Origin: Eledone cirrhosa | Lineage: Eukaryota | Assembly: GCA_964016885.1 (NCBI GenBank) | Contig: OZ024741.1 | Span: 164,548,001-164,612,000 of the forward strand | Length of the DNA: 64,000 nt | Direction of reading: 5' to 3' | Part shown: in pieces, positions 1,781-63,618 of the stretch | Layout: each line of letters starts with the position of its first letter | Position numbering within the stretch: position 1 is the first letter of the stretch | Program-made: the position numbers and the translations under genes | The notes under the pieces: generated by a model | What the model saw: only the letters and a program-made list of their open reading frames with translations | What the model was told of the DNA's origin: nothing | Databases searched by the model: none

Positions 1781-2174
1781 ATCATCATTTTCATCATCAT
1801 TTTACGTCCGCTTTTCCATGTTTGCAAGGGTGGGATGGGAACTGATTCTGGCTTGATTTCTACAGCTGGATGCCCTTCCTAACACTAACCTCATTTACAG
1901 TGAGTGCTGGGTGCTTTTTTGCCGTGGCACCTCCACGACCACTTTGCAGTGGAATGATAGGGAACCCAGTCCCTATCATCTCATTTCTACAGCTGAGTAA
2001 ACTGGAGCAATGTGAAATAAAGTGTCTTGCTCAAGGAAACAACACATCACCCGGTCTGAGAATTGAACTCACAACCTTTCGATTGCAAGGCCGAAAGGTT
2101 GTGAGTTCAATTCTCAGACCGGGTGATGTGTTGCTTCCTTGAGCAAGACACTTTATTTCACATTGCTCCAGTTT
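1781..2174 (-). mobile_element. SINE family 1 copy with 5' fold-back inversion
   Basis: 2093-2174 is the reverse complement of about 1999-2081 and ends in a TA array. Confidence 0.85.
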
Positions 2175-2465
2175 ATATATATATGGTATCAAAGATATGA
2201 CAACCTCCCTAGACACCCCACCCCCCAAAATGCCTAAAATTATGCAAGCATAAAGAAGCACACACACACACACATTATATATACAGATGCATATTATGAA
2301 ATGGAAAGGACTATCCAATATCTATGTTGTAGGATTAGAAAGAAAGAGATGTGTTTAAGATATAAAAATAAAAAGAAGAAGAAGAAGGAGGAGGAGAGGA
2401 AAAAGAGGGAGATGAGGGGAGAGATAGACCAAATGTGAGAGTGTTTCAGTTTAAAGATGACGTAC

Positions 2466-5239: not shown

Positions 5240-5241
<2 letters not shown>

Positions 5242-5425
5242 GAAAAAGTATGACCCCGACAGCAGAGCCCAAGCCGTTTCGACGGCTATTTCTGAGAAAT
5301 AGCCATCGAAACGGCTTGAGCTCTGCCGTCGGGGTCATACTTTTTCCTATTACCCACTCTACTACCCTAAGTATTGAGTACTCTGGTGCGTTATGGTCCA
5401 TCTGATTCCTTACCACAATTCCTTC
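5240..5425 (+). mobile_element. TA-inserted palindromic half-hammerhead element, family A copy 1
   Basis: 109-bp palindrome 5240-5348 (axis 5294), GAAA-CGGC..GCCG-TC^GGGGTC at 5308-5336, shared tail tacccactctactaccctaagtattgagtactctggtg, TA arrays on both sides. Confidence 0.8.
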
Positions 5426-5848
5426 TATATATATATATTAATATCAATGTTTCTATTTAATTTATATATACGAAACACAAACATTAAATGAATAAAGAAC
5501 TCAGTATGCAAAATAGATTTAAATATTTTTTTTACAAAGTGACAGTTGCATTGAAATATCCCCAAATTTGGTTTTTTAAACTGTCAGTTTGAAATATTGT
5601 ATTTGATGAAAGTTTTAAGTAACTGTCACATTGTAAATGTGTGTTTGAGTGCATGTGTGTGTGGCTATTACTACTTCATATACATGTGTTCTTCAGTGGT
5701 GGTGGTGTGTATATGAGAATAACTACTATTTATAGATGGATGGCCTTTCAAATATTAACCACCTCTTTACTTGATGTTATCAGGATGGAGTTGGCCACCA
5801 GCAAGAGTGAAAGCACTTAAGTTGGAATTACTATTTCAATGCTTATAT

Positions 5849-14943: not shown

Positions 14944-16092
14944 GTGTGTTTTGTCATGGCACTAGAACTACCATTTTATAGAGTGGACCGGATGTATTTT
15001 ATTGTGGCATTAACACTAGAACTTTACAGGGATTATAGGATTACAGGGAAGACTCGGTGCATTCTATTGTGGCATCAGCACTACCTCATTCCAAGGATTA
15101 CAGTGGACAGGGTGCATTCTAGTGTGGCACCAGAACTACCACTTTATAGAGTGGAGTGGATGTATTTTATTGTGGAATCAGCACTACTTCTTTACAAGGA
15201 TTACAGGGTGGACTGGGTGCATTCTATTGTGGCACCAGAACTACCATTTTATAGAGTGGAGCGGATGTATTTTATTGTGGCATCAGCACTACCTCTTTAC
15301 AAAGATTACAGGGTGGACTGGGTGCATTCTATTGTGGCACCAGAACTACCTCTTTACAAGGATTACAGGGTGGACAGGGTGCATTTTATTGTGGCACCAG
15401 AACTACCACTTTATAGAGTGGAGCAGATGTATTTTATTGTGGCATCAGCACTACTTCTTTACAAGGATTACAGGGTGGACAGGGTGCATTCTATTGTGGC
15501 ACCAGAACTACCACTTTATAGAGTGGAGCGGATGTATTTTATTGTGGCATCAGCACTACCTCTTTACAAAGATTACAGGGTGGACAGGGTGCATTCTATT
15601 GTGGCACCAGAACTACCTCTTTATAGAGTGGAGCAGATGTATTTTATTGTGGCATCAGCACTACTTCTTTACAAAGATTACAGGGTGGACTGGGTGCATT
15701 CTATTGTGGCACCAGAACTACCACTTTACAAGGATTACAGGGTGGACTGGGTGCATTCTATTGTGGCACCAACACTACCATTTTATAGAGTGGAGCAGAT
15801 GTATTTTATTGTGGCATCAGCACTACCTCTTTACAAGGATTACAGGGTGGACAGGGTGCATTCTATTGTGGCACCAGAACTACCACTTTATAGAGTGGAG
15901 TGGATGTATTTTATTGTGGAATCAGCACTACTTCTTTACAAGGATTACAGGGTGGACAGGGTGCATTCTATTGTGGCACCAGAACTACCACTTTATAGAG
16001 TGGAGTGGATGTATTTTATTGTGGAATCAGCACTACTTCTTTACAAGGATTACAGGGTGGACAGGGTGCATTCTATTGTGGCACCAGCACTA
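14944..16092. repeat. SINE-derived minisatellite with alternating 39- and 45-bp units
   Basis: attgtggcaccagaactaccactttatagagtgga.. and ..tttacaaggattacagggtggacagggtgcattct units. Confidence 0.95.
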
Positions 16093-16961: not shown

Positions 16962-18982
16962 TGTTGTAAAGTAGTAGTGCTGGTGCCATGATAAAACACA
17001 TCTAGTCCATTTGTAAAGTAGTAGTGCTGGTGCCATGGTAAAAGGCACTTAGTCCACTTGTAAAGTAGTAGTGCTGGTGCACTGGTAAAACACATCCAGT
17101 CCAGTTGTAAAGTAGTAGTGTTGGTGCCATGGTAAAAAGCATTCAGTCCACTTGTAAAATAGTAGTGTTGGTGCATTGGTAAAACACATCCAACCCAGTT
17201 GTAAAGTAGAAGTGTTGATGTCATGGTAAAAAGCACTCAGTCCACACTATAAAATAGTAGTGTTGGTGCATTGGTAAAACACATCCAACCCAGTTGTAAA
17301 GTAGAAGTGTTGATGCCATGGTAAAAAGCACTCAGTCCACACTATAAAATAGTAGTACTGGCACCACAATAAAATGCTCTCAATACACACTATAAAATAG
17401 TAGTACTGGCACCACAATAAAATGCTCTCAATACACACTATAAAATAGTAGTACTGGCAACACAATAAAATGCTCTCAATACACACTGTAAAATAGTAGT
17501 ACTGGCACCACAATAAAATGCTCTCAATACATACTGTAAAATAGTAGTACTGGCACCACAATAAAATGCTCTCAATACATATTGTAAACTAGTAGTACTG
17601 GCACCACAATAAAATGTTCTCAATACATACTGTAAAATAGTAGTACTGGCACCACAATAAAATGTTCTCAATACATACTGTAAAATAGTAGTACTGGCAC
17701 CACAATAAAATGTTCTCAATACATACTGTAAAATAGTAGTACTGGCACCACAATAAAATGTTCTCAATACATACTGTAAAATAGTAGTACTGGCACCACA
17801 ATAAAATGTTCTCAATACATACTGTAAAATATTAGTACTGGCACCACAATAAAATGTTCTCAATACATACTGTAAAATATTAGTACTGACACCACAATAA
17901 AATGTTCTCAATACATACTGTAAAATATTAGTACTGGCACCACAATAAAATGCTCTCAATACATATTGTAAAATAGTAGTACTGGCACCACAATAAAATG
18001 CTCTCAATACATACTGTAAAATAGTAGTACTGGCACCACAATAAAATGCTCTCAATACATACTGTAAAATAGTAGTACTGGCACCACAATAAAATGTTCT
18101 CAATACATACTGTAAAATATTAGTACTGGCACCACAATAAAATGCTCTCAATACATACTGTAAAATAGTAGTACTGGCACCACAATAAAATGTTCTCAAT
18201 ACATACTGTAAAATATTAGTACTGGCACCACAATAAAATGCTCTCAATACATACTGTAAAATAGTAGTACTGGCACCACAATAAAATGTTCTCAATACAT
18301 ACTGTAAAATATTAGTACTGGCACCACAATAAAATGCTCTCAATACATACTGTAAAATAGTAGTACTGGCACCACAATAAAATGTTCTCAATACATACTG
18401 TAAAATATTAGTACTGGCACCACAATAAAATGTTCTCAATACATACTGTAAAATAGTAGTACTGGCACCACAATAAAATGTTCTCAATACATACTGTAAA
18501 ATATTAGTACTGGCACCACAATAAAATGCTCTCAATACATACTGTAAAATAGTAGTACTGGCACCACAATAAAATGTTCTCAATACATACTGTAAAATAT
18601 TAGTACTGGCACCACAATAAAATGCTCTCAATACATACTGTAAAATAGTAGTACTGGCACCACAATAAAATGTTCTCAATACATACTGTAAAATATTAGT
18701 ACTGGCACCACAATAAAATGCTCTCAATACATACTGTAAAATAGTAGTACTGGCACCACAATAAAATGTTCTCAATACATACTGTAAAATATTAGTACTG
18801 GCACCACAATAAAATGTTCTCAATACATACTGTAAAATAGTAGTACTGGCACCACAATAAAATGTTCTCAATACATACTGTAAAATATTAGTACTGGCAC
18901 CACAATAAAATGCTCTCAATACATACTGTAAAATAGTAGTACTGGCACCACAATAAAATGCTCTCAATACATACTGTAAAGT
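16962..18982. repeat. SINE-derived 39-bp minisatellite, opposite orientation
   Basis: ctgtaaaatagtagtactggcaccacaataaaatgttctcaatacata repeated about 50 times; degenerate at the left edge. Confidence 0.95.
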
Positions 18983-34609: not shown

Positions 34610-34771
34610 TATATATCATAAAACATGTCTATAGAATCACAAGATAAAATATATACCATTTCCTCTCCCAATTAGCATAATTAACTATATATATAGTTAA
34701 TTATGCTAATTGGGAGAGGAAATGGTATATATTTTATCTTGTGATTCTATAGACATGTTTTATGATATATA
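34610..34771. repeat. 162-bp palindrome centred on (TA)5
   Basis: Arms are reverse complements about 34690/34691; no mismatch seen by eye. The left arm ends in a TA tract. Confidence 0.9.
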
Positions 34772-34911
34772 GCTCTGATTATTTAATTTATTAATTTTTC
34801 ATTGAGCCACAAAGTGACCCATTGCAAAACACGTATATGTATGTATATATATATGTAAACCTTTATATATATATATATGTAAACCTTTATATATATATAT
34901 ATGTAAACCTT

Positions 34912-35354: not shown

Positions 35355-35433
35355 ATATATATATACACACACATATGCAAGCGTGGAACATGGACGTTAA
35401 ACGATGATGATGATGATGATGATGATATATATA

Positions 35434-35615
35434 AAAAGATTCAGGACCCCGCCGGCTGAGCTGCAGCTGTTTTGACAGCTAGATCCGAATGTTCAGATCT
35501 AGCTGTCGAAACAGCCAGAGCTCAGCCGTCGGGGTCCTGAATCTTTTCATATATTACCCACTCTACTAACCCAAGTATTGAGTACTCTGGTGGGTATTTT
35601 ACCACACCCTATCTG
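35434..35615 (+). mobile_element. Family A copy 2
   Basis: Palindrome 35434-35547, GAAA-cagc..gccg-TC^ggggtc, same tail, TA-flanked. Confidence 0.8.
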
Positions 35616-37582: not shown

Positions 37583-37620
<38 letters not shown>

Positions 37621-37622
<2 letters not shown>

Positions 37623-37730
37623 GGAACAAGTAAGACCCCGACGGCTGAGCTCAAGCCGTTTCGACGACTAATTCTGGACTGAATTAGCCGTCGAAATGGC
37701 TTGAGCTCAGCCGTCGGGGTCTTACTGGTT

Positions 37731-37734
<4 letters not shown>
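37621..37734. mobile_element. Family A copy 3, tail-less palindrome
   Basis: 114-bp palindrome with a 6-nt unpaired loop (tggact). Both arms end at cctat inside a TA array. Confidence 0.8.
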
Positions 37735-37788
<54 letters not shown>

Positions 37789-37789
<1 letters not shown>

Positions 37790-37933
37790 CAAAGAAGGTG
37801 TGGTAAGATACCAGTTGGACCATAATGCATGCACCAGAGTACTCGATACTTAGGGTAGTAGAGTGGGTAATAGGAAAAGTTTGGATCTAGCTGTCGAAAC
37901 GGCTCTGCCGTCGGGGTCCTGACTATTTTCCTA
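37789..37933 (-). mobile_element. Family A copy 4, tail-proximal arm largely missing
   Basis: Reverse-complemented tail, then taggaaaa joined to gtttggatctagctgtcGAAAcggctctgccgTCggggtc...ttttccta. Confidence 0.75.
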
Positions 37934-39101
37934 TATATATGACAGAGAGGGAGAGAGAGATTTTCAGTTCGAGTCCTGGCATGCATTGTGTCCTTGAGCA
38001 ACCACAGTATTTCACATTGCTCCAGTCCATTCAGTTTGCAAAAATTCAAAAAGCCATCATTGTCACACTAAGAACGTTAAGGGTACACATGCCTGTGGAA
38101 TATTCAGCCATCTATCTGCATATGAGCACATTGTTCAGTTAGTTGATGAAATCAACTGGAATACTCCTCGTTGGAACCAATGGTGGTCCAAAATGTGTGT
38201 GTGTTTGTCTGAGTGTATAATAATAATAATAATAATTGTTTCTACTTTTGGCACAAGGCCAAAAGTATCTCAGCGCATTACTGGTACTTTATTTTATCGA
38301 CCCTGTTTGGATGAAAGGCAAAGTTAATCTCTGCAGGATTTGAACTCAGACCATAAGGGCCGTAACTCCTTGCTGCAAAGCATGGCGTCTGACCTTCTAC
38401 CGATACAGTCAATCCACCGCCCTATTATAATAATAATAATAATAAAAATAATGATAATTATTGTGTACAGTGCCCAGGTGCACTACAAATCATCAAAGGT
38501 TCATGTATAGTACATAGAATAATGTACAAATGTCAGAAAAGTGGACAGTGTATGTGTCATGATATACACACAGATACAAATAGCATTATTTTATTTATGT
38601 CTGCTTTCCTTATCAGCATAGGTTGGATGAGTTGTCAAGATCTGAATCAGTTCTTATTTGTTGTTTGGAGAAGCCTCTCCTCCCATTTTGATGGGCTGCA
38701 GGATCATGTTCCATTTTCAACATGGTTTCTACAGCATGATATTCTTCCAAACACAAACCACTTTACATCATATACTTAGTGCATTTTATTGTGGCAGCAG
38801 CACTAGAGCCATAGTCATATCCTTGGCAAGACTATCAAGTTCTTTCAACTATGTATATGTGTGTGTATATGTATGTATATGTATGTATATATATCATCAT
38901 CACTGTTTAGCGTCCAGTTTTCCATACTTGTGTGGGAAAGACGGGTTGTCTACGTCGAGAGACAAGTATGGCTAGAGTTGGCCACGTAGTACCTTGCTCT
39001 GATGAGGACTGTGAATTTGGCTGGGTATTTTACAGTCGGATGCCCTTCCTAACACCAACTACATTTCCAGTATGGAACATATATATATATATATATATAT
39101 A

Positions 39102-39521: not shown

Positions 39522-39587
39522 TATATATATATATATATATATATAATAGTAATAAAAGAAAGATATATATTTTATATCATCTCTATT

Positions 39588-39665
39588 TACTTCATTATAT
39601 ATATTTCAAAGATGCAAACTCTTATGTATAACATAAACCAGAACATGTCCTCTTCAGACAAAATA
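39588..39665 (-). ncRNA. Type I hammerhead ribozyme motif, PLE type
   Basis: UAUUUUGU-CUGAAGA-[ggacaug...uuaugu uau acauaa...caucuuu]-GAAA-UAUAUA-UA^AUGAAGUA. Helix I pairs over 8 bp with GU pairs and extends with catctc/gagatg. Sits between TA-rich tracts. Confidence 0.75.
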
Positions 39666-42543
39666 TGAGATGTATAATTTTTATATATATTTTTATAATA
39701 TATATATTACATATGTGTGTGTATATATATTGATAAATGTATGAATTGATGTATGTATTCTTGTGCAGATGTGTGTGAGTCTGTATGTGTCTCTGTCTAT
39801 ACCAGTCATGGGAAAACTGTAGCCCATTTGGTTTTCTGAATAGTACACCTAATTTCAAAATTGCCTTCAACTTTTTAGTAGTGCAGCCCACTTTATGAAA
39901 AGTCACATCTTATGTGGTCCACTGCTCGAAAATGGCTGCCCATAGCTAGCCTATACAGACAGGAATTCTTCAACTAGAACATTGTATAGTTGGTCAAAAA
40001 ATAATTTAATTAGACAGCTAACAGGAAGTTAACAGTGAATGTTAGTCATTAGTATAATAAAAATCAAAAGTCAAATTGAAGTAAAAGCTGGAGAAGATGT
40101 TAGTGAATGATTTCTAGTTGGTTTAGAATGATGTGTTAAGAAGCCATAAAATATTTGCCAAGTTTTTTATTGGTTAAAACACAACATTATTGATCACCAG
40201 CTAATGGTCTTATAATAATAATAATGAAAATTATTGTGTACAGTGCTCAGATGCACTACACCTTATCAAAGGTGTAGGTATAGTACATAGAATAATGTAC
40301 AAGCGTTAGGAAAGTGAACAGCATATGAGTCATGATACACACACACACATGTGTTTGTGTATATGGAGGTGGAATATCAGATGTTGTGTTGGTGTATTTC
40401 GGGAAGCATGGAAGTTTTGAAGGATGCAGTGTCCCGACAGCTAACAGTTGATGCAGGTAGATTGTTTCATGCTTCAGCAACTCTGCTTGTGCATGATTGT
40501 TAATTAACTCTTAACAACTTGTAATGATTTAGCAGAAAATAGCTAAAAACAGGCCTCTTAATTCAAATGTTTATATTTCCATTACTAGTGGTCAGATTGT
40601 GAACATTTTCAGTTAACTAAAGACTTTTATTTTTAATGTGATGCATTCAGTGTTGATTTGTTTTATATGCTTCAAAATATCTTGCTAATGCAGTTTCATG
40701 TAGTCCAGAACTTTATTAGTTAAAATGTCAAACTTTTCCTTACATATCTGAAAACTGATCACTGACAATTCCACTGCAACTCTATAACCAGGTTACATAT
40801 GTGTGACAAACATTTCAACACCACAAGGAATAAAGAAAAAGTGCATTTAACTTTTTGGTGGGTGTTTAACTGTCTAAAATGATTCTTCCATGGTGTAATG
40901 ACTTCAGTTTCAACAAATAGTCTCAGATCAAGACATTTGCAAAACACTAATATAACTTTAAAAAAAAAGAAAAAAAAAAAAACTATTCTAGCATCTTTAT
41001 AATCTATGCATATACACCTTTTAAACATCAGCATCATAAGAGTTGGGGGAGAAAAAATATAAAATGTGCTATCACTTCAGCACATTGAGAATAAAAATAA
41101 CATTTATTGATTCTATTTCACGTCAAAGTATATCGCATTTTTATTGACAATACCATCAAAGTTACCAAGACTAAGTTTATATGTATTCTTGTAAGCTTTC
41201 GATATTGTGAGTATATATATATATGTGTGTGTGTGTTTGTGTCTGTGTGTTTGTGTCTGTGTGTTTGTATGTTTGTGTTTGTGTGTGTGTGTTTGTGTGT
41301 GTTTGTGTGTGTGTATGTATTTGTGTGTGTGTCAACGGAAGTGTTTTATGTATAATCATGCATAAAAACAACGGAACATTGATTGAATGGGAATTCAAAA
41401 TATATATTGCCTTGAATAAAAAAGAACATATACCATCACCTTTTATCATCATCATCACTGTTTAACATTCTTTTTTCCCACCCTAGTATGGGTTAGACAA
41501 GCCAGGTATGATGATCATGTTTTGCTCTTACAGAACAGCTTGGTTTCTATGGCTGGATGCACCTCCTAACCCCAACCATATTTACACATACACAAAATTA
41601 GGTTAAATTCACAACATTTTCATCTGTCATGGTTTCAGTTGAGAATCATGGAACTTGTAGTTTCATAGATTGCCATGTTAATGGTACGTAAGTTCCTTAT
41701 ATATTTTACATATAAACAAAGTTGTGTAACCAAGTGGCCAAACTAATCATAAGCCATATTGATTTCAATGATCATTCTCTAAACATCCAGAATAGCAATT
41801 ATTTCCAGTATTGGATGTTTCAAAATATAAAGCCTGACTTAAGGGAGGTATATCTTTATGACTAGAGGAGGCAGTTATATCCTTTCCCTAAAAGGTCTGC
41901 ATGATACAATTAGAGATCATTTTCTGGCAGGTTAATGTACATAGGTTAATAAGGGAGGTTACATGAGAGTGGAGACAGGAATTATAAAATGATATATGAT
42001 AAACATAAATATATTTAACCTAAGGTCTAGCAAGTGAGGGGGAATAAAATACAGCTGTATTCTTGAAAGTGACTGTGTGATGGAGCAGAAAATATAGTAA
42101 AATTAAATTCTATTTAAAATTTAAATTAATGGAGACTAGGGTAGTCAAAGAGTTAAATACTAGTGGGCAGGGTGGAGCCATATACAAATGTTAATTGAGG
42201 AATAGAAAGAAACATAAAAATTTCAAATCAATAAATTAGTGAAATAATCAATAATTAACATAAGCCTAAAGCAAGTAGTATAGCTGGAGGCCTAGTTGAT
42301 TACATTGACTGAGTATATTGCCAGAACTTATTACATTACATGCACCCCCAGAAGGCTGATACGCAATCGATGTCAGTGAGATTTGAACTCAGCCATTACT
42401 AAGTATATATAACTGGTATAAAATTCTAAGATGGTGGTGATTGTGTTGTTTGCAATAATATTATTAGTAGTGGTGGTACTGGTGGTGTTTGAAATAGTAG
42501 TATTAACAGAGGTGGTGGTGGTGGAAGTAACAACAACAACAAC

Positions 42544-44871: not shown

Positions 44872-45171
44872 TGCAGAGGTTATATTTAATTTGTTGGGAT
44901 TCAACAAGCTTAAAAAATGTATAACTGGTATAAAGCACTCAACAAGTTAGTGGAGTAAATACACAATATATTAATAAATGGAAACTATATTTATAAAACC
45001 ATATTTATTTTATTATACATATTTCAAGGGCAACAGAGGCAAATTATGGTGCGCTTTCATCAGATAAAATACAGATTTGGTTTATAAATAAATATTGACA
45101 TACCCAGAAATAAAAAGACAACCTTAACGGTTGGAGCTTCCTGGATAGTGGAAGTTTCCATTTATTAATAT

Positions 45172-45176
<5 letters not shown>
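44872..45176 (-). mobile_element. TA-inserted HHR element with 5' inverted segment
   Basis: Contains the 45006-45071 HHR. acaatatattaataaatggaaact (44963-44986) is inverted at 45153-45176, where it meets the TA array. Confidence 0.7.
45006..45071 (-). ncRNA. Type I hammerhead ribozyme motif, PLE type
   Basis: UAUUUUAU-CUGAUGA-[aagcgcacca...uguugcccuu]-GAAA-UAUGUA-UA^AUAAAAUA. Perfect 8-bp helix I, near-palindromic helix III. Confidence 0.8.
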
Positions 45177-45678: not shown

Positions 45679-45840
45679 ATGTAGGAGGTGTGTTTTATTG
45701 TAATACAATAAAGCAATGCAAATATCGGATAAGTAGCACTCAACAGTTTATAGGACTGGAGTATAAATAATATAAAATCAAAAGATGGTTAAAAGAGTTC
45801 CATGTATTTTATTATGTGCATTTAAAAAACAAATATCATC

Positions 45841-45841
<1 letters not shown>
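45679..45841 (-). mobile_element. 5'-truncated copy of the 46759-47143 element
   Basis: Near-identical tail and 3' ribozyme half (GAAA mutated to TAAA). Stops at aaatatcatca, near the helix II loop, inside a TA array. Confidence 0.75.
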
Positions 45842-45871
<30 letters not shown>

Positions 45872-46107: not shown

Positions 46108-46409
46108 TCATTTTCATCATTTCATCATTTCATTTTACGTCCGGTGGGACGGGAACTGATTCTGGCTTGATTTCTACAGCTGGATGCTGAGTGCTGGGTG
46201 CTTTTTTGCCGTGGCACCTACACGACCACTATGCAGTGGAATGATAGGGACCCCAGTCCCTATCATCTCATTTCTACAGCTGAGTAAACTGGAGCAATGT
46301 GAAATAAAGTGTCTTGCTCAAAGAAACAACACATCACCCGGTCTGAGAATTGAACTCACAACCTTTCGATTGCAAGGCCAATGCTCTAACCACTAAGCCA
46401 TGTGCCTCC
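46108..46409 (-). mobile_element. SINE family 1 copy with internal deletions
   Basis: Same consensus, inside a TA-rich array. Confidence 0.8.
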
Positions 46410-46447
46410 ATATATATATATATATATATATACATACATATATATAC

Positions 46448-46734: not shown

Positions 46735-46885
46735 TATACATATATATATATATACATATGTAGGAGGTGAGTTTTATTGTAGTACAATAAAGCAATGCAG
46801 ATATCGGATAAGAAGCACTCTACAGTTTGTAGGACTGGAGTATAAATAATATATAAGATCAAAAGATGGTTAAAAGAGTTCCATG

Positions 46886-46956
46886 TATTTTATTATGCGC
46901 ATTTCAAAAACAAATATCATCATGCAATAACATTTGCGTTTTCGTCAGATAAAATA
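46886..46956 (-). ncRNA. Type I hammerhead ribozyme motif, PLE type (element-sense copy)
   Basis: Exact reverse complement of 47033-47103. Followed on the minus strand by a roughly 125-nt tail that ends in a TA array near 46759. Confidence 0.85.
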
Positions 46957-47032
46957 GGGAGACATGATATGAAGGTTAAAATACACTTGTGAATAGTGCA
47001 GTTTTAAATCAACATGTTGATTTAAAACTCCC

Positions 47033-47103
47033 TATTTTATCTGACGAAAACGCAAATGTTATTGCATGATGATATTTGTTTTTGAAATGCGCATAATAAA
47101 ATA
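47033..47103 (+). ncRNA. Type I hammerhead ribozyme motif, PLE type (inverted duplicate)
   Basis: UAUUUUAU-CUGACGA-[aaacGCAAAUGUUAUUG ca UGAUGAUAUUUGUuuuu]-GAAA-UGCGCA-UA^AUAAAAUA. Intact core, palindromic helix III, perfect helix I. Confidence 0.85.
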
Positions 47104-47356
47104 CATGGAACTCTTTTAACCATCTTTTGATCTTATATATTATATATACATATATATATAAATGATATCATCTGGGTTCAAAAACTAACATAACAATAGA
47201 CTCAAGTGTGTAAATCTAATGCTGTCCACAAGAAGTTAGTAATGACATTGGTGGTTAACTGCCAAAAATGGTAGACTGAAATCTGTTGTGGGTTTAGTTA
47301 CATCCTGTTTTAATTTCATTTCAAATCCTGTTATTGCTCACTTCCAGCCAATCATC

Positions 47357-47748
47357 CATCATCATCATTTCATTTTACGTCCACTTGCAAGCAGGGAAAA
47401 AGCAGATGTAAAATGAAATGATGATGATGATGATGATTTTCCCTGCTTGCAAGGGTGGGATGGGAACTGATTCTGGCTCGATTTCTACAGCTGGATGCCC
47501 TTCCTAACACCAACCTCATTTACAGTGAGTGCTGGGTGCTTTTTTGCCGTGGCACCTCCACAATCACTTTGCAGTGGAATGATAGGGACCCCAGTCCCTA
47601 TCATCTCATTTCTACAGCTGAGTAAACTGGAGCAATGTGAAATAAAGTGTCTTGCTCAAGGAAACAACACATCACCCGGTCTGAGAATTGAACTCACAAC
47701 CTTTCGATTGCAAGGCCAATGCTCTAACCACTAAGCCATGTGCCTCCA
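47357..47748 (-). mobile_element. SINE family 1 copy with rearranged 3' end
   Basis: The tail is duplicated in inverted orientation at about 47385-47435. Confidence 0.8.
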
Positions 47749-50639
47749 TCAAGCGTTAATAATGATTTCTGATTTAGGTACAAGGCCAGCAATTTTGGAG
47801 GTGGGGGGAAAGTTGACTAAATCGACCCCAGTGTGTGTCTGCTATTTTATTTTATCGACCCCGTAAGGGTGAAAGGTAAAGCTAGCCTGAACTCAGAATA
47901 TAAAGGGACGTAACTCTATGTTGTGATGCATGGTGTCCGACACTCTACCTATACTGCCAAACCACCGCCCTATCTAGTGTTAATGATATGTATACATATC
48001 AGAGGCTCTCTTGTTAATGTGGTTTCAGGTGGTTTGTTAATTCAAATGTTCATAGTATCTTTATTAGTGGACAGAATGTTGTGAAAATTTACAGTAAACT
48101 AAAGACTATAATTTTGAATGTGATGCAGCTCTAGTGCTGTTTTGTACTTTTGAAGAATGTCTTGTTAATTCCAAGTGGTTTGTTAATTCAAATGTTTATA
48201 GCATCTTTATTAGTCGACAGATTGTTTTGAAAATTTGCAATAAACTAAAGTAAAGACTTTAATTTTAAGCCTTTTATTATTAAATCACCTGAAGCCAATG
48301 CTGGTTCCATGAAAAATGACCACCCATTTTAAAAGCTTCCTATTTAAATTTAAATTTTCCAACATAATTTTAGAGAAGAACCATGTTAAGTTACTATTCT
48401 AGTAATGAAATACTTAATTTTAATAAATCCTTCAAAATTGTTAATAAATTTATTGAAATAGAGTGTATTTCATTTGAAATAAGATAATGCAAGAGTTAAA
48501 CACTTTGCTTAGTTCTTTTCTCCCCAAACAGTTACCCATTAGAACTCCTCATGTTTTTCAAGCTGGCGATGTTCCAGACTAAATAGCAATTGTATTAAAC
48601 TCATTATTCTGAGAAGGGTTAGAGTAGTCTTGGGCCACTGAAAATCTTCCTATTCAGGCCATAATAAATGAGGATGATGTTCATGATGATAGTTGTTTTG
48701 GTGATGATGATGATGATGATGACACATCTCCCCATGGGCCACAGACTAACTTTTTTTTAAAAATTACAATAATTAGACATTAATTAATGATGATGACAAT
48801 TACAGTGGTGGTGGTGTTGATGATGATGTTGATGATGAGGGTGATAATGGTGGTATTGGAGGTGATGATGATAATGTTTATGATAATAATGATGATAATG
48901 ATGATGATGGTGATAGATCTTCCTCATAAATGACATTTATAACAACAAATCAACAAAGACACTGAAATAATATTGAAATAGTTTATAGAAAAGATCAATA
49001 AATTTGTTGTGATTAAAAATGTAATTTGACACAACTTTTTCTGTCTACTATATCAACATTATTGAAAATTTAATGTTTGTTTTTCAATGTCTGCATGGGT
49101 CAGATAATGTGTGTATGTGTAAGTTTCCATGTTAGTACATATGTATGTATGTCTATGTTTGTGTGTGCATGTGTGTATGTATGTGGGCTATCTGTTTTTA
49201 TGTTTGTTCTGTGTGTGTCTATGAGTTTCCATGTTAGCACATGTGTGTGTATTTCTATGTTTGTGTGTGCATACATGTATGTGTGCATAAGTGTGTGCGT
49301 GTGGGGTGGGGGGTGGGGAGATCTGTTTTTATGTTTGTGTGTGCATGTTAGTTCTATGTGTGTGTATGTATGAGTTTCCATGCTATCGTATGCGTGTACA
49401 AACCTGTTTCTATGTGAGTCTGTGTGTATTTCTATATGCAAGTGTATGTTTCTGTGTTTCTATATACATTGTCCAATATGTTCTCCCTTTCTTTAAAATG
49501 GCAGAGAATTTATCTTCTATGTCTATCAGATTAGGTAACTGCATAGAGATTCCATCCTTATGGGGGTTGCTAGAAACCAGTCATATCCTGGGGCTCATTT
49601 AAGTAGACCATAATGTACTCAATACACCCTGTAAAGTGGTTGGTGGCAGGAAGGGCATTCAGCCATAAAAATAAACATGTGAAACAAAGGGATGGTATGA
49701 ATCTTTAGATGTGTCAAAGATATGACAATCTCTCTAGTATTGGTGATCAACATGATAATCACCTTCAGAAGAGCATCCAACCATAGTAAACCTGCCAAAT
49801 GAAGTGTTGGGAGGTCTCTTTAGCTCTGTCAAAGATATGACAACTTCCTTAATGCTGGTACCTTAATAAAATACACCTACTAGAGCATGGGAATGTATGT
49901 AAGTGAGAGGCAGCGGCCATGCACATCTGAGAGGCCTGTAGCTTTAAGTACTGACTTGGACTGTGACAATCCATCCAATTCTTGCTAGTAGAGAGAATAG
50001 ACATTAAATGATGATAAAATTGTTTCTACTGCCACAAGTAGAAACAATTATTATTGAAGCACCCCAGGGTCGTACACCCCTATCGGGGAATTTATTTTGT
50101 TATATTTATGCATAGTTTATTTTATATTTTTATATTTTCATTGTTAAATTAGTCTTGCCATTGTGCACTTTTACTCGACCTTATTGTAAACCCCCACTGT
50201 TCCTGTCTTTGTATTGTCCCCTACATGTCGGCCCTGGTGGCTAATAAATGAAATCATTATTATTATTATTAAAGGAAAATCTGGGTGGAGAGGGAAGTGC
50301 TCTCTTCCCAGCAATTTGTTGAAAGATGGGTGAGAGAGGCGAGCATGGCCTGAGTGAATGGGCTTGCTCTGAATATACACCTGTAGATTAGAGGTGGAAA
50401 ACTGGAAGAGGGCACTAGCCCTGGTGATCAGGGTCAGTGTAGCATTTTTAATGAGCTTTCTCCATGAGTGAGCCTCGGAGGTCTCCTCACTTATTGGGGA
50501 ATTTTCATTTGTTTCATTTTTTTTTGTTACATCCTTTGTATTTGTTTTTACACATAGAAACACCCATTTGTACTGTCCTGTGCTGTCCTTAATGTTATAC
50601 TTTGTGTCAACCCTTCTGGTTGATAAAGAAATTATTATT

Positions 50640-51040
50640 ATTAAAATAAAGTACCAGTAATGCACTGGAATAATTGCTAGCCTTGTGCCAAAAGTAGAAA
50701 CAATTATTATTATTATTATTCGCCGAGGTTGACTTTGCCTTTCATCCTTACGGGGTCGATAAAATAAAGTACCAGTAATGCACTGGGTAATTGCTGGCCT
50801 TGTGCCTAAAGTAGAAACAATTATTATTATTATTATAGGGTGGTAGATTGGCAGTATCGGTAGAGGGTCGGACGCCATGCTTTGCAGCATAGACGTACGT
50901 CCCTTTACGGTCTGAGTTTAAATCCCGCCGACGTTAACTTTGCCTTTCATCCTTAAGGGGTCAATAAAATTAAGTACCAGTAATGCACTGGGATAATTGC
51001 TGGCCTTGTGCCAAAAAGTAGAAACAATTATTATTATTAG
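50640..51040 (+). mobile_element. Tandem SINE family 2 copies of increasing length
   Basis: Two 5'-truncated copies and one full copy, each ending in (att)n. Confidence 0.8.
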
Positions 51041-51544
51041 GCTATTGGGTCGACTAAACAAATTATCATTTACTATTTCACATTTTTTTACACAGTGTAA
51101 CACTGTATAGTAGTCACATGTACACACACAAACACACACACATTCATGGATAAGAGTGATGTAAAGACACACATGTATAAGTCTGAAGCAGGTACAGACA
51201 TACACACATGTATAACAGTTATCTACATAAACACAGACACACACACACATGTCTAAAAGTGAGGTAGGCTCAAACATACACACATACACAGATACACACA
51301 TACACAGATACACATGGGTATAAGAATATGGTAAAATAGAGAAAATAATTTCCACAATCAACATGGTAATTACATATACATTATTGAGTTCCAAATTATA
51401 TGACATTGTGGTAATGGGAAAATATGTTCTAATTAGCTGGGGACACTGTTAACTCTTGAATAGGCCAACAATTTTGGGACTTTTCAATTAGGATATTCAC
51501 CAGAAAGAAACAAGAAAAAGTATATTTGCATACAATCATGTGTG

Positions 51545-51573
<29 letters not shown>

Positions 51574-51581
<8 letters not shown>

Positions 51582-51991
51582 GAAAACGAAAAAAATCAGT
51601 GTTGCATCTGAACTCAATTTATTGTGTGTTACAATTGTTTCGCTGGCGGAGAGGTCGAGACGCGATCATTGTGTGGATCTGTCTGATTCTGGACCCGCAG
51701 GTTTGACAGACACGTCTAATGATTTCGGAGCATATTCTCTCACTGTGAGAGAATATGCTCCGAAATCATTAGACGTGTCTGTCAAACCTGCGGGTCCAGA
51801 ATCAGACAGATCCACACAATGATCGCGTCTCGAGCTGTCCGCCAGCGAAACAATTGTAACACACAATAAATTGAGTTCAGATGCAACACTGATTTTTTTC
51901 GTTTTCTATTATATCATACTCTGCTCTGTAAGAGCATAGAGTGCTCAACCGGCATACCGCCTATGGAAGCATCTTAGCTACCATCAGACAG
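51574..51991 (+). mobile_element. TA-inserted element: 341-bp palindrome with half-hammerhead and 77-nt tail
   Basis: Palindrome 51574-51914 (axis 51744, two G.G mismatches seen). GAAA-CAATTG-TA^acacacaataaa at 51847-51870. Confidence 0.8.
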
Positions 51992-52013
51992 ATATATATA
52001 TATCCGCATATAT

Positions 52014-52650
52014 ATCATCATTCATCATCATCATTTCATTTTACGTCCGCTTTTTCCCTGCTTGCAAGGGTGGGACGGGAACTGATTCTGGCTTGATTTC
52101 TACAGCTGGATGCCCTTCCAAACACCAACCTCATTTACAGTGAGTACTGGGTGCTTTTTTGCCGTGGCACCTCCACGACCACTTTGCAGTGGAATGATAG
52201 GGACCCCAGTCCCTATCATCTCATTTCTACAGCTGAGTAAACTGGAGCAATGTGAAATAAAGTGACTTGCTCAAGGAAACAACACATCACCCGGTCTGAG
52301 AATTGAACTCACAACCTTTCGATTGCAAGGCCAATGCTCTAACCACTAAGCCATGTGCCTCCATATATATATATATCATCATCATCATCACCGTTTTACG
52401 TCTGTTCTTCCACGCTAGCATGGGTTAGACGGGTTGTCCTGTTGTGGGCAGTGTCTGGTCGGCTGACCATGCCTTGCTCATACAGGAACTGATTTGGCTT
52501 GATTTCTACAGCTGGATGCCCTTCCTAACACCAACCACATTTACAGTGAGTGCTGGGTGCTTTTTCGTGGCGCCTAAACGTCCACTTTACAGTGTGGGCT
52601 GGGTGATTTTTTGCCGTGGCACCTCCACGACCACCTTGCGGTGGGGTGTG
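52014..52650 (-). mobile_element. Two adjacent SINE family 1 copies (52014-52362 full, 52376-52650 head-less variant)
   Basis: Same consensus segments. Confidence 0.8.
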
Positions 52651-52759
52651 TGGGGGCATATTGTCTATATGCTTCAGCTTGTACCCATGGGAGGTCGGGT
52701 ACTCTGTATTACTGCGTGACGCCAGAGGTCACGGTCGTGTGTCATCGCCTTTGAGATAT

Positions 52760-52797
<38 letters not shown>

Positions 52798-52799
<2 letters not shown>

Positions 52800-52947
52800 C
52801 GAAGGAAATGTGGTAAGGAACCAGGTGGACCATAACGCACCAAAGTACTCAATACTTGAGGTAGTAGAGTGGGTAATAGGAACCAGTAAGACCCCGAGAA
52901 TTAGCCGTCGAAACGGCTTGAGCTCAGCTGTCGGGGTCTTACTGGTT

Positions 52948-52952
<5 letters not shown>
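52798..52952 (-). mobile_element. Family A copy 5, tail-proximal arm truncated
   Basis: Reverse-complemented tail, ataggaaccagtaagacccc, then gagaattagccgtcGAAAcggc..gctgTCggggtcttactggttcctat, TA-flanked. Confidence 0.8.
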
Positions 52953-52987
<35 letters not shown>

Positions 52988-54578
52988 CACACACATATAT
53001 ATATATACACATACACACACACAGGTATACATAGGTATGTATATATGTGTGTATGTACATACATATGTAGGCATGCACGTATGTATATATGTGTATATGT
53101 ATGTACGTACATACATTTATAAGCATGAATGTATGTATGTTTGTATGTATGTATGTAAAGAAGCACTTGCTGCAACTTTGAAGTCACTGCCACTTTTTTC
53201 TTCACAAATATATCTTATACTCAGTTCACATGTATTGAGTGCACATTCAGTAAATATTTGGACATTTCACTTACACTCATATATAGTAAGATCATTATTC
53301 AACTTAGTACTCCATACTTTTAAGAAAGTACAGTATAGATATTATTTAAAAACATAAGCTCTGTAGTCAAGCTTGAATAGTTTTAATGGGAGAGTGAGAA
53401 TATATACTTATTAAAAAATGCCACACGACTCAGTAGACTACCGATACGTCATAATATAAAAGTCCTATTCACTAGTACAAGAACTATGACAAAGTAAATG
53501 TAATGAGAGATCAGAGGCTACATCATTTGGCAATTGAAGGGTCACAAGACAGGGTCTAAAAGGACTCTTTAGTCTGGATGATCAAGTGATAACCTCTCTA
53601 GTGCTGCGGTTATGAAAAATTGCACCCTGTACAATCTGAAGGTGGCTGGTGGTAGGAAGGGCATTTAACATAGAAACCAAGGAAAATATGGATGATATGA
53701 GGAAGAGGTATCTTCTTGTTTCAGATCATGACGATCTGTCCAGCCCATGCCAGCAAGCTAGACAGACATAAAATGTTGATGACATGTATGTGTTTATGCA
53801 AGTGAGTGTGTGTGTAATATAAACATACACACACATATATATGCATGTACATGTATATCACCTTGGTATATTTGTAGTTGATGATACATGTCAGAGCTTG
53901 CCAATATTTTCATATCATGATGATTAAATGTCTAAAAATCACTGATTTGGGCTGGCAGCTTTAGCTGTTCGCAATCAATATCCTTGTCCTCTAGCCTAAC
54001 AAAAGCTCTCTCTATGTTTGACCTGGATGACCCACTGTGGTTATGCCATGTCCACACTAGTACATGCAGGAAATCCAGGCAGTAACTGTCAGACAATTGG
54101 ACACATCTGAACAAATTTGTGAGGTTGTTGCAGCCCCTTCTCCTATGGACTATTTCCACAGAATCACATTGTGCATCTGATATACAGTATATTTATCCAG
54201 CTAATACTAAAGAATGAGACACTTCCAGGAAAGCTTCAAAATACCTGAAGACATCTGGCCATCCTACACCAGTTGTGACATAAACAACCACCAGGGCTTA
54301 TCTTCGCTACTACACATATCCAGCACTGCAAATTTACCTTCTAGGTCCAAAAAGATTGTCCTTATTTTAAAACCCAAACCTTATTGATATAACACTGCTA
54401 TCCCAATTCCTGCTTTCGACAGACCACCAGATGCAAAAATTGGTGCAAGAGCACATGTCCCAGAAATATATCAAATAAAACATACAATGTAAATAATGAT
54501 TCACAGATCGTTAAACTAAACCACAACAAATACAACACATGGAAACACATAAAACACAACACCGTAATAGTGATTTAC

Positions 54579-60699: not shown

Positions 60700-61508
60700 C
60701 TTTTCTGTTGCTAATCAAATCAACTAGATAGCAACTAGAACACATTTATGGACACTTTCTGTGACTGGAAAAGTTTTATATAATTGATGCTCTTCCCCTC
60801 AATTACCCCTGCGCATCTTCTACATACAAAGTCTTCCCTTCCTTATAGTCTATCTGTTATTCCACTACAAGATTTATATTGTGTACGTCATATAGAGTTT
60901 CTGCCTCCTCCTTTTCTGCATATCAGGCAGGGCTATTTTTCTGATGGGATCAGGGTCCTGTCTTCTTTCCTGCTTATCAACACTTTAGTTTTTCTAAGTT
61001 TACTCTCAGCCCTTCTGATAGTAAATTTTGCTTCTGTAGTCAGAACTTATTCTCTAGTTCTTTTATGGATTCAGCTATAAGAACCAGATCATCCACATAG
61101 AGAAGTGTCCATGGACAGCCAATCTTAAACTCCTCTGTTATTGCCTGGAGAACTATGATGAACAGCAGTGGATAAGAACTGAACCTTATGAACGCCTGCC
61201 TGTACATTGCATTCCCCACTAAATTCACTTCCTACTCTCATTTTACTGACAGCTCTTCTGTACATGGCTTGCAGTACTCTCACAAGCCATTCTTCTACAC
61301 CTAATTTCCTTAAGGTCCACTTGATAACAGATCAAGGTACTCTGTCAAAGGCCTTTTCTAGATCAACAAAAACTAAATATAACCGCTTATTTTTGGCTAG
61401 GAACATCTCTTGTAGTTGTCTCACTAAGAAGAAGGCATCTGTTGTACTTTTCCCAGGCACAAAGTTAAACTGCATCTCATCTAATTTGACTCTTTCCTTA
61501 ATTAGATG

Positions 61509-61509
<1 letters not shown>
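60700..61509 (-). mobile_element. Decayed RTE-clade LINE reverse transcriptase fragment
   Basis: Minus-strand translation MQFNFVPGKSTTDAFFLVRQLQE...VFVDLEKAFDRVP...LLFIIVLQAITEEFKIGCPWTLLYVDDLVLIAES, with stops and frameshifts. Confidence 0.9.
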
Positions 61510-61597
<88 letters not shown>

Positions 61598-63618
61598 AGA
61601 CATCTAATTAAGGAAAGAGTCAAATTAGATGAGATGCAGTTGAGAGAGAGAGCTTTTGTGTGTGTGTGCATGTTAGCATTACTGGAATCCAAAGAAATCT
61701 TTTATTCAGCATAAAGCATCAGATGTAAATTTCTATTTTGCAAATGGCATATATAATTTGCATTGAAGTTTTTAGAGAGAAAACTGGGAGTAGGATTATG
61801 GATGTTAGGAATTATTAAGCATATATACTTTAAAGATATTTAACATTAAATGACAGTAATAATGAAATCATTCTGATAGTATTGCTTTAAAGAATTATCC
61901 CATTAATTGGCAGAGGAATCACTAGTAGAAATAGTTCAAATGAGAATTAGCTATCCATTGTTAGATCAGATTATTTGAAGAAATTAATAGTAGCATTAAC
62001 ACAATGTGGTTCATAATAGAGGCATATATGGAAGCATATACAATATGTTTATGTATAATATACACACATAAGCCTCGTTGTAGGTATTTTAAATAGAGAT
62101 TATGTCACAGTTACCTCATAGCTACCGAGGAAGCTCTGATGATTACAACTTGAAATAGCCACAGCAAGACTTATATATGTTTATTATACATAATGTATAT
62201 GCTTTCATATGTGCCTATATCTGAAGAAAGTGTAAGAAGTGTAATGCTGTTTTATAGAAACTTGGTTATTAATAAAGCTATAATAGTGCTACAGAACTCG
62301 AGTGAGTGGAATATAGAGAACGGAACTGAGGAATAAAGTCTGTGTTGTTGGCTGTTTAATATTGATTTCTGATATTAGAAGGCCATAAAGGCATATAAGA
62401 AGAGGAGATACGCAATCAATCTAATCAATTCCATTGTATTATTGGTGCTTATAATATAGACCCTGGAGAGATGCAAGACTAAATAAACTTGAACAGACTG
62501 TAAAAGTTTGGTACTCTACCATTGTTCCTATTTAGCCCGAGATATGCCAGCTATTTAACATGGAACCCTAACATTGCTCCTGCTATTTAACCTGGTACTC
62601 TACCATTCCTCCTACTTCAACAACCTACTATTCCTCCTAGCATTCCAGTGTTAGCTACCCGCAGGTGTGAGCCTCGCAAGCTGGAATGGCTCTTCCAGCG
62701 TGTCTCCCTCACCATCTTCTGGGGAAATGCCTTCTCTATTCTGTCTGCAGGGGCCACGGGGTGGCCATCATATGGGCCCACATTTGCTTATAATAGTGAG
62801 AGATGGGGAGAGCAGGAAAGATGTAGGCAAGTGACAGTTGGGGCTTGGTTCCATTGTGTTCGGAGCTGATGTATATGTATATATTTATTTACCACTTCAC
62901 CATTCCAACTGGCACCAACCACTAATAATGATGTGAGTAGGTATCAAGTTTGGTGATATAACTTGACGACTCCTACTAAGAGTAGAGCTAGTTTTACTTC
63001 TTTAAAAGAAGAAAACAAATATAATCAATTCAATTTACCGTTGTATATGACTGGTATTTGTTTGGTTTACTATCAACTACTTTGATAACTTTCAATGAGG
63101 CAGTAATAGTTTTATTAATGTAGACAGAATCTAACTAACAACTATCAGAAAACTACCAATAAGAGATATGAAGATACTTCAATGCTAAAAGAACACAATA
63201 TAATTGTCTTAGGCTTTCTTCTCCACACAAAGGCGAGACCAAGTTTTAAAGAATTTATCTCCTTATTAACACATCTGACTGAATAGTTATTGTTTAAATG
63301 TCTTACTTAGAGATATCATATGAATGATGAATTCATCATATAGAAATGGACACAGCATGATTCCTGTGTATTCCTGTGTATTCTGTGTTTATAAACATTT
63401 TAGTAGACTTGTTGATATACATACAATTGAATAAATTTCTGAATACAACTACTAATTTACTTAGTCAATTATTTGTTTCTCACTTCACTTACAGTTTCCT
63501 AGTTTTCAAGAACCTACTAAAGACAACAATGCTATGTTAATTCTATCAAATTCTATCAATGTGCAGTGACAAAATATTATATATGGTTCTGTCTGAAATT
63601 CTAGAAGTAATACAACAA

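What the first reader, a model, noticed from the sequence alone, without database searches (positions are those of the whole stretch)
46759..47143. Two intact, divergently oriented hammerheads in one young insertion
A 116-bp inverted repeat with no mismatch seen places a complete HHR on each strand (46886-46956 minus, 47033-47103 plus). They are separated by a 38-nt spacer and a 30-bp perfect palindrome, suggesting two successive template switches. In any single transcript the ribozyme is accompanied by its exact antisense, which should refold it into a long inert hairpin. That would be a built-in off switch or a kinetic race during transcription (inference).
Basis: partly seen in the sequence, partly recalled or inferred. 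Interest (0 to 1): 0.72.

Follow-up and report, generated by a model that had tools for sequence, protein, structure and literature searches.

The report
Penelope-type insertion with inverted hammerhead copy
The two back-to-back self-cutting RNA motifs are real, but they are the usual footprint of a Penelope-like jumping gene that lands as a copy plus a shorter inverted copy, so this is ordinary mobile-element debris rather than a built-in ribozyme switch.

Summary
The anatomy is confirmed: an exact 116-bp inverted repeat, a 38-nt spacer, a 30-bp palindrome and a type I hammerhead pattern on each strand. It is one ~256-nt copy of an abundant repeat inserted in (TA)n, joined head-to-head to an inverted copy that lacks 40 internal nt and the 86-nt 3' tail. 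This is the published architecture of Penelope-like elements (PLEs), including junction palindromes and hammerhead pairs on opposite strands. In other runs the family has two 3' ends, matching the two ends here, and 14 of 15 listed joints are inversions. A sibling element 1.7 kb away has its own inversion, and seven further fold-backs lie in the window. The switch reading is weak. Read-through in either direction makes the antisense arm first, so no race favours the ribozyme, and the motif looks dimer-dependent. Not shown: cleavage, expression, a parent RT/endonuclease ORF, or reads over this locus's own junction. Rfam hammerhead models give no hit. The scan noted this architecture before on other genomes.

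The parts
46760..47015 (-). Direct copy of a short, high-copy Penelope-type element (pLTR-like 3' end of a PLE, or a non-autonomous unit); sense is the minus strand; 3' end runs into (TA)n
   Evidence: Family reads and contigs cover 46756-47015 continuously and leave the window sequence behind 47015; 3' loose ends before 46758 in X21 (1218 reads) and X1 (11 contigs); second copy with the same 3' end at 45680-45842, 93.5% identical
46760..46845 (-). One-sided 3' tail (86 nt), present only on the direct copy
   Evidence: The inverted repeat stops at 46846; the family has a second 3' end into (TA)n before 46841 in 4 of 4 runs (X1 57, X4 2, X7 1, X21 258)
46846..46961 (-). Left arm of the exact 116-bp inverted repeat
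46886..46956 (-). Type I hammerhead motif; long stem II, palindromic stem III; predicted cut 46894/46893
   Evidence: cleavage not tested
46960..46999 (-).
   Evidence: prefix match 116, suffix match 15, overlap 2, deleted 40; family depth is continuous across it
47000..47029 (.). 30-bp perfect palindrome: the head-to-head junction of the two copies, centre 47014/47015, next to a native self-complementary hexamer
   Evidence: family continues with ATG behind 47015, and 10 contigs (X1 9, X4 1) carry an extra AT behind 47013
47015..47143 (+). Inverted second copy, with the 40-nt internal loss and without the tail; includes the right arm 47028-47143
   Evidence: its end matches the family's second 3' end
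47033..47103 (+). Type I hammerhead motif, identical to the left one; predicted cut 47095/47096
46750..46759 (.). Candidate 10-bp target-site duplication, left copy (weak: low complexity)
   Evidence: the same 10-mer occurs 3 times in the left TA tract
47144..47153 (.). Candidate 10-bp target-site duplication, right copy (weak)
45680..45842 (-). Second copy of the same family, cut in stem II, GAAA changed to TAAA, no inverted copy seen
44873..45176 (-). Sibling element with its own hammerhead (core at 45063) and its own 24-bp inverted copy (45153-45176 against 44963-44986) ending at the homologous site
39547..39671 (-). Older related hammerhead-bearing remnant (core at 39657)

Best explanation
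A single, recent target-primed insertion of a short Penelope-like element end (a pLTR fragment, or a non-autonomous unit moved by a PLE enzyme) into a (TA)n microsatellite. The element's RNA carries a dimer-type type I hammerhead and has two reverse-transcription start sites about 83-86 nt apart. One cDNA started at the outer site and gave the tailed copy; a second copy, ending at the inner site, was joined to it head-to-head at 47014/47015, either by priming from the opposite target nick or by fold-back self-priming. The second copy lost 40 nt at a 2-nt microhomology, during synthesis or afterwards. Two outward-facing hammerheads result only because both copies were long enough to include the motif. 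If the locus is read through, the RNA forms a 116-bp hairpin and does not cleave; that is a side effect, more likely feeding small-RNA or editing pathways than acting as a switch. Shown: anatomy, repeat family, two 3' ends, other inverted joints. Inferred: PLE parentage, order of events, dimer dependence, fate of any transcript.
For: Geometry equals a palindrome with one 40-nt loss and a one-sided tail. Family is abundant: 4215 contigs of X1, 62 of X4, 7 of X7, 4984 reads of X21 laid. Two family 3' ends into TA at 46758 and 46841 match the two ends of this insertion. 14 of the 15 joints listed are inversions with other breakpoints (7 more rows not shown). Sibling at 44873-45176 has an inverted copy ending at the homologous site. 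Seven other fold-backs in the window, at least five visibly with a one-sided tail before a TA tract. Published for PLEs: inverted 5'-truncated copy, one-sided tail, (TA)n targets (PMC8557442); palindromes at the inverted junction and an inverted pLTR 37 bp shorter with 15-bp overlap (PMC3846280); dual hammerheads 100-700 bp apart on opposite strands (PMC4209133); two RT start sites bounding the tail and extension of both target strands (PMC11167929). Dimer fold -33.3 against -22.6 kcal/mol for two monomers. Stem III stays self-complementary with different letters in 3 of 3 distinct motifs.
Against: No RT or GIY-YIG ORF was found: 14 of 32 long ORFs scanned against Pfam gave no such family, no genome is held, and two metagenome pattern scans were empty. 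The tail (86 nt) is longer than the published 30-40 bp. Stem II (36 nt) is much longer than in published minimal PLE hammerheads and Rfam models miss the motif. The inverted joints in X1 rest on 1-3 contigs each with 22-29 letters on the short side, at an 88% likeness setting, and 11 of the 15 rows either say 'between: not known' or come from one read start; the tool warns such joints can come from repeats. This locus's junction was not covered. One common X21 variant (46900, 1182 reads, 24 starts, absent in the other 3 runs) breaks the stem III palindrome. The sibling at 45063 does not fold to the dimer form in the MFE.
Confidence: 0.85

Rival explanations
1. One reading: the antisense arm is a functional, built-in off switch or a co-transcriptional race that controls hammerhead cleavage.
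For: The hairpin does abolish the hammerhead fold in read-through RNA (P about 1e-70). Arms are identical.
Against: Antisense is made first in both directions, so there is no window for the ribozyme to fold in the equilibrium prefix model. Transcripts from the centre have no antisense arm. Inverted arms in the family vary in length; in most listed joints the inverted arm starts at 47065-47105, inside or past stem II, and the sibling's is 24 bp with no ribozyme. Monomer fold is improbable even alone (2.8e-5). For the Anolis PLE, hammerhead mutants did not affect insertion in vitro (PMC11167929).
Confidence: 0.04
2. A plain single insertion later turned into a palindrome by DNA repair (fold-back at the self-complementary hexamer, or replication template switching), with the 40-nt loss stabilising it; retrotransposition did not make the inversion.
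For: Junction sits at a native self-complementary hexamer; the 40-nt loss has microhomology and breaks central symmetry, as expected of palindrome repair (general knowledge).
Against: The inverted arm ends at the family's own second 3' end, in TA, and copies no flank; the sibling's inverted arm ends at the homologous site. Repair has no reason to stop there.
Confidence: 0.06
3. Assembly or read artefact (fold-back chimera).
For: No read or contig in 4 of 4 runs spans this junction or the right flank; depth over 47016-47035 is about 1.6 in X21 against about 630 just left of it.
Against: Both sides continue into different flanks; the right arm carries a 40-nt loss and ends at a biological end; inverted joints of this family occur in a contig set and a raw-read set of different studies (X1, X21); the lack of cover extends over the whole unique flank, so those runs simply do not hold this locus.
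Confidence: 0.03
4. A non-LTR retrozyme (tandem, circular-RNA type) monomer rather than a PLE end.
For: Size about 256 nt, low GC, type I hammerhead, no ORF (PMC7229834).
Against: No head-to-tail tandem: 0 of the 4 related copies in the window is tandem; 5' truncation, tail and inversion are PLE marks. Retrozymes are themselves proposed to be PLE derivatives (bioRxiv 10.64898/2026.07.22.740005, abstract and introduction), so the two readings overlap.
Confidence: 0.05

Closest known systems
Insertions of endonuclease-bearing Penelope-like elements (Penelope/Poseidon, Neptune, Nematis, Hydra), Craig et al. 2021, PMC8557442 fig. 2 legend and text (passages read)
   Same: 5'-truncated copy with an adjacent inverted 5'-truncated copy, tail on one end only, (TA)n target, hammerhead within the repeat
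   Different: Tail 86 nt rather than 30-40 bp; no ORF seen, so the clade cannot be assigned
Adineta vaga Penelope copies, Arkhipova et al. 2013, PMC3846280 (passages read)
   Same: Head-to-head inverted pLTRs with palindromes (18 and 38 bp) at the junction; Pen2a inverted pLTR overlaps the direct one by 15 bp and is 37 bp shorter; 8-10 bp TSDs; self-priming proposed
   Different: Those flank long ORFs; here only the ends are present and the TSD is a weak candidate
PLE hammerheads of metazoans, Cervera and De la Pena 2014, PMC4209133 (parts 1-2 of 4 read)
   Same: Type I, short palindromic helix III, dimer-dependent and weakly active; dual motifs 100-700 bp apart on opposite strands already reported in Schistosoma and ascribed to truncated PLEs
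   Different: Stem II here is a 36-nt hairpin (published 6-8 bp), stem I 8 bp, and pair 10.1-11.1 is A-U instead of the conserved G-C
PAc Poseidon element of Anolis, Frangieh et al. 2024, PMC11167929 (parts 1-2 of 4 read)
   Same: Two RT start sites bounding the tail; AT-rich targets; both target strands cut and extended, which can explain head-to-head pairs
   Different: Protein and activity not shown here; distance between the two ends is longer
Animal non-LTR retrozymes, PMC7229834 (passages) and bioRxiv 10.64898/2026.07.22.740005 (part 1 of 5)
   Same: Short non-coding unit with a type I hammerhead
   Different: No tandem array seen; dispersed truncated and inverted copies instead

Membership tests
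Type I hammerhead ribozyme | Conserved core CUGANGA ... GAAA ... UH | tested here: met
   the commonest listed family variant in the core is at the free position N7 (46944); none of the 13 listed variant positions in the motif hits the 12 fixed core letters (chance 0.07; 14 variant rows not shown)
Type I hammerhead ribozyme | Stems I, II and III can form, with pair-keeping variation | tested here: met
   Stem I 8 bp, stem II 15 bp, stem III 2 bp as monomer or 8 bp as dimer; 8 of 9 listed stem variants keep the pair on their own (chance about 0.06) and the ninth does with a listed partner change, phase unknown
Type I hammerhead ribozyme | G10.1-C11.1 closing pair | tested here: not met
   A-U in this copy; family variants at 46941 and 46906 would give G-C if they occur together
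Type I hammerhead ribozyme | Match to an Rfam hammerhead model | tested here: not met
   No hammerhead family among 1, 30 and 4 matches
Type I hammerhead ribozyme | Self-cleavage | not testable with these tools
   Needs an assay; no RNA holder listed
Penelope-like element (EN+) | ORF with telomerase-like RT and GIY-YIG endonuclease | tested here: inconclusive
   None in 14 of 32 long ORFs scanned; no genome held; truncated or non-autonomous copies lack it by nature
Penelope-like element (EN+) | Inverted 5'-truncated copy adjacent to the 5' end | tested here: met
Penelope-like element (EN+) | Tail on one end only, from two alternative 3' ends | tested here: met
   Ends at 46758 and 46841; length 83-86 nt, longer than the published 30-40 bp
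Penelope-like element (EN+) | Insertion into AT-rich or (TA)n targets | tested here: met
   loose ends
Penelope-like element (EN+) | Hammerhead within the terminal repeat | tested here: met
Penelope-like element (EN+) | Target-site duplication of about 8-12 bp | tested here: inconclusive
   10-bp candidate in low-complexity flanks, 3 copies of it in the left tract
Non-LTR retrozyme | Head-to-tail tandem units each with a hammerhead | tested here: not met
   0 of 4 related copies in the window are tandem; rest of the genome not testable
Non-LTR retrozyme | Unit-length linear and circular RNA | not testable with these tools
   No RNA holder listed

The most novel reading that the evidence does not exclude
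The family is a ~260-nt non-autonomous PLE derivative whose RNA begins at a self-complementary hexamer (about 47013-47018). Two cDNAs primed from the two target nicks, one at each 3' start site, run to that RNA end and anneal through it. This would make head-to-head pairs the normal product of twin priming, and a family with thousands of copies would give a direct genomic test between twin priming and self-priming for the unexplained PLE inversions. Support: 7 of 15 listed joints lie at 47014-47016 and 10 contigs carry the palindrome form with an extra AT. Caution: the reference leaves the native sequence at 47015, which inflates counts there, and 272 X21 reads continue past it in one main sequence.
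Probability: 0.2. Interest if true: 0.45.

Novelty: new member of a known kind. Interest (0 to 1): 0.13.

Why it matters
As it stands, little: it is one more PLE-type insertion in a genome region that holds many. Its use is as a clean example. The exact arms, the two family 3' ends and the junction record how PLE head-to-head pairs form, which the papers read call unresolved (PMC8557442, PMC3846280). The long-stem-II, A-U-closed hammerhead is missed by Rfam models, so such families are probably under-counted. A selected antisense switch on a ribozyme would be new, but the evidence points away from it.

Tried and rejected
Whole genome: none held, so copy number, parent element and fraction of inverted copies could not be counted. 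Rfam at gathering score on the window and at E<=10 on 551 and 88 bases: no hammerhead family; the top hits are generic hairpin or TA-repeat matches below gathering score, rejected. Pfam on 14 of 32 ORFs of 120 aa or more: only repeat-driven hits with 0 passing stretches, no RT or GIY-YIG; stop-to-stop frames at 47800-53200 look like simple-repeat text, so no host gene or read-through direction was found. Two pattern scans of metagenome contigs: 0 matches each. Run search: no RNA holder listed. The bacterial promoter scan (7 found, 5.6 expected) does not apply to an animal genome and was ignored. The tandem repeat at about 14960-16090 shares a short word with stem I but has no hammerhead core, rejected as a retrozyme. 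Paper searches: 'octopus' + 'hammerhead ribozyme' gave nothing on such a family (the organism guess is recalled from the look of the repeats and comes from no call); hammerhead + antisense + retrotransposon + inverted repeat + self-cleavage gave 1 unrelated paper; the dimer-cleavage paper on PLE hammerhead variants appeared only as a phrase in other papers' text and was not read. Earlier-finding look-ups by sequence and by place were empty. No supplementary files were opened; those of PMC4209133 and PMC8557442 list hammerhead families and may hold this one.

Full report
Observation. There is a 116-bp inverted repeat with no mismatch (46846-46961 and 47028-47143), a 30-bp perfect palindrome (47000-47029) and 38 nt between the left arm and the palindrome. 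Each arm holds a type I hammerhead pattern: 8-bp stem I, CUGACGA, a 36-nt stem-loop II, GAAA, a palindromic stem III and UA, with predicted cuts at 47095/47096 and 46894/46893. My pattern scan finds 4 such motifs in the window, against a mean of 0.07 in 100 shuffles, none reaching 4. Rfam's hammerhead models do not match, and pair 10.1-11.1 is A-U rather than G-C.

What the insertion is. The simplest description is two copies of one element, head to head, centred on 47014/47015. The left copy (46760-47015, sense on the minus strand) is native: reads and contigs of the family cover it continuously. The right copy (47015-47143) equals the left one minus 40 nt (46960-46999, 2-nt microhomology) and minus the last 86 nt. 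So the 'spacer' is native sequence missing from one copy, and the 'palindrome' is the junction. Both ends run into (TA)n; a 10-bp duplication can be drawn but is weak because the same 10-mer occurs three times in the left tract.

The family. Laid on 46756-47350 at 88% likeness, the four runs gave 4215 contigs (X1), 62 (X4), 7 (X7) and 4984 raw reads (X21) (4 of 23 listed runs were laid). Loose ends show two 3' ends into TA: before 46758 (X21 1218 reads, X1 11 contigs) and before 46841 (X21 258, X1 57, X4 2, X7 1), with a further group before 46851 (X21 106); 142 loose-end rows were not shown. These two ends are the two ends of this insertion. Of 15 joints listed (7 not shown), 14 join a direct copy to an inverted one at other breakpoints and 1 is a plain deletion. 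These joints are individually thin (1-3 contigs, 22-29 letters on the short side in X1; 98 reads from 1 start and 79 reads from 2 starts in X21). None of the four runs covers the right flank (depth 0 over 47136-47350), so this locus itself was not tested.

In-window controls. A second copy at 45680-45842 shares the 3' end and is cut inside stem II. A diverged sibling at 44873-45176 has its own hammerhead and its own 24-bp inverted copy, which ends at the site homologous to 47143. An older remnant lies at 39547-39671. Seven further fold-backs of other families were picked from the self-comparison and examined (5240-5348, 34610-34771, 35427-35554, 37598-37757, 51574-51914, 52876-52952, 1998-2175); at least five visibly have a tail of roughly 60-90 nt on one side before a TA tract. 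The architecture is therefore common here, with or without a complete ribozyme.

The ribozyme. Listed family variants behave as expected for a selected structure on the sense strand, though the statistics are modest: 8 of 9 stem variants keep the pair (chance about 0.06), none of 13 variant positions hits the 12 fixed core letters (chance about 0.07), and the commonest core change is at free position N7 (14 variant rows were not shown). One X21-only variant breaks the stem III palindrome. As a monomer the active fold is 4.6 kcal/mol above the MFE (ensemble share 2.8e-5). Two sense strands form both stems I and an 8-bp intermolecular stem III; the active dimer scores -33.3 kcal/mol, against -35.9 for the dimer MFE and -22.6 for two monomers. 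The sibling at 45063 does not reach this form in its MFE. A dimer-type, weakly active motif fits what is reported for metazoan PLE hammerheads (PMC4209133, parts 1-2 of 4).

The switch idea. A read-through RNA does fold into the long hairpin (about -209 against -110 kcal/mol with the hammerhead enforced). But the motifs face outward, so in either direction the antisense arm is made first, and the first 15 nt of the ribozyme are 90-100% paired to it at all 12 prefixes tested (an equilibrium model, not kinetics). No race favours cleavage. An RNA starting at the centre has no antisense arm, so the arm cannot switch off the element's own transcript. Each strand has one sense motif, so the intramolecular dimer is not available either. 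The likelier fate of such a hairpin is small-RNA processing, as reported for inverted Penelope copies in transgenic Drosophila (PMC3681739, passages); this is inference, and no RNA data were available.

Comparison with what is known. Craig et al. describe PLE insertions as 5'-truncated, often with an adjacent inverted 5'-truncated copy, a 30-40 bp tail on one end and (TA)n targets (PMC8557442, passages). Arkhipova et al. report head-to-head pLTRs with palindromes at the junction, one inverted pLTR overlapping by 15 bp and 37 bp shorter, and propose self-priming (PMC3846280, passages). Cervera and De la Pena already note dual hammerheads 100-700 bp apart on opposite strands. Frangieh et al. show two RT start sites bounding the tail, cutting and extension of both target strands, and no need for hammerhead cleavage in vitro (PMC11167929, parts 1-2 of 4). 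The insertion works like these. Membership is short of proof because no RT/GIY-YIG ORF was seen. Differences are the longer tail and the long, A-U-closed stem II. Earlier notes of this scan describe the same architecture in other genomes; I treat them as leads, not support.

Verdict. Real feature, known kind. Best reading: by-product of PLE-type integration (0.85). Functional off switch 0.04, later DNA fold-back 0.06, retrozyme monomer 0.05, artefact 0.03; the retrozyme reading overlaps the best one. The one lead worth keeping is the clustering of inversion joints at the self-complementary hexamer near 47015, which could separate twin priming from self-priming if counted genome-wide. Interest 0.13.

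Noticed in passing
window 5240-5430, 35427-35600, 37598-37934, 52794-52952: A second repeat family present as fold-backs with a one-sided tail in (TA)n. By eye it carries the 3' half of a type I hammerhead with a longer stem III and a GUC site, cut within stem II; no complete copy was found by the scan.
   Followed up: partly
window 51574-51990: Near-perfect 170-bp-arm fold-back (2 mismatches) with a tail of about 77 nt into TA; it has a GAAAC plus short palindrome motif but no canonical CUGANGA upstream.
   Followed up: partly
window 34610-34835: Perfect 81-bp-arm fold-back with no spacer and a tail of about 60 nt.
   Followed up: partly
window 1998-2175: Fold-back (84-bp arms, 1 mismatch) of a tRNA-related SINE-like repeat whose other copies lie at 46188-46411 and 47526-47749 (98% alike); suggests the SINE may be moved by the same machinery.
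   Followed up: no
window 61468-61641: Inverted arms of about 45 bp enclosing a TA tract.
   Followed up: no
window 14960-16090 and 16964-18432: Two diverged minisatellite arrays in opposite orientation, about 65% alike; no hammerhead core.
   Followed up: no
window 46982: This copy differs from nearly all family members at 46982, inside the stretch missing from the inverted arm.
   Followed up: no
window 46756-47135, run X21: T>C is the commonest kind of change (12 places, against 7 A>G, 7 G>A, 5 C>T), which is A>G on the element's sense strand; could reflect A-U to G-U tolerance in stems or edited RNA templates; not tested.
   Followed up: no
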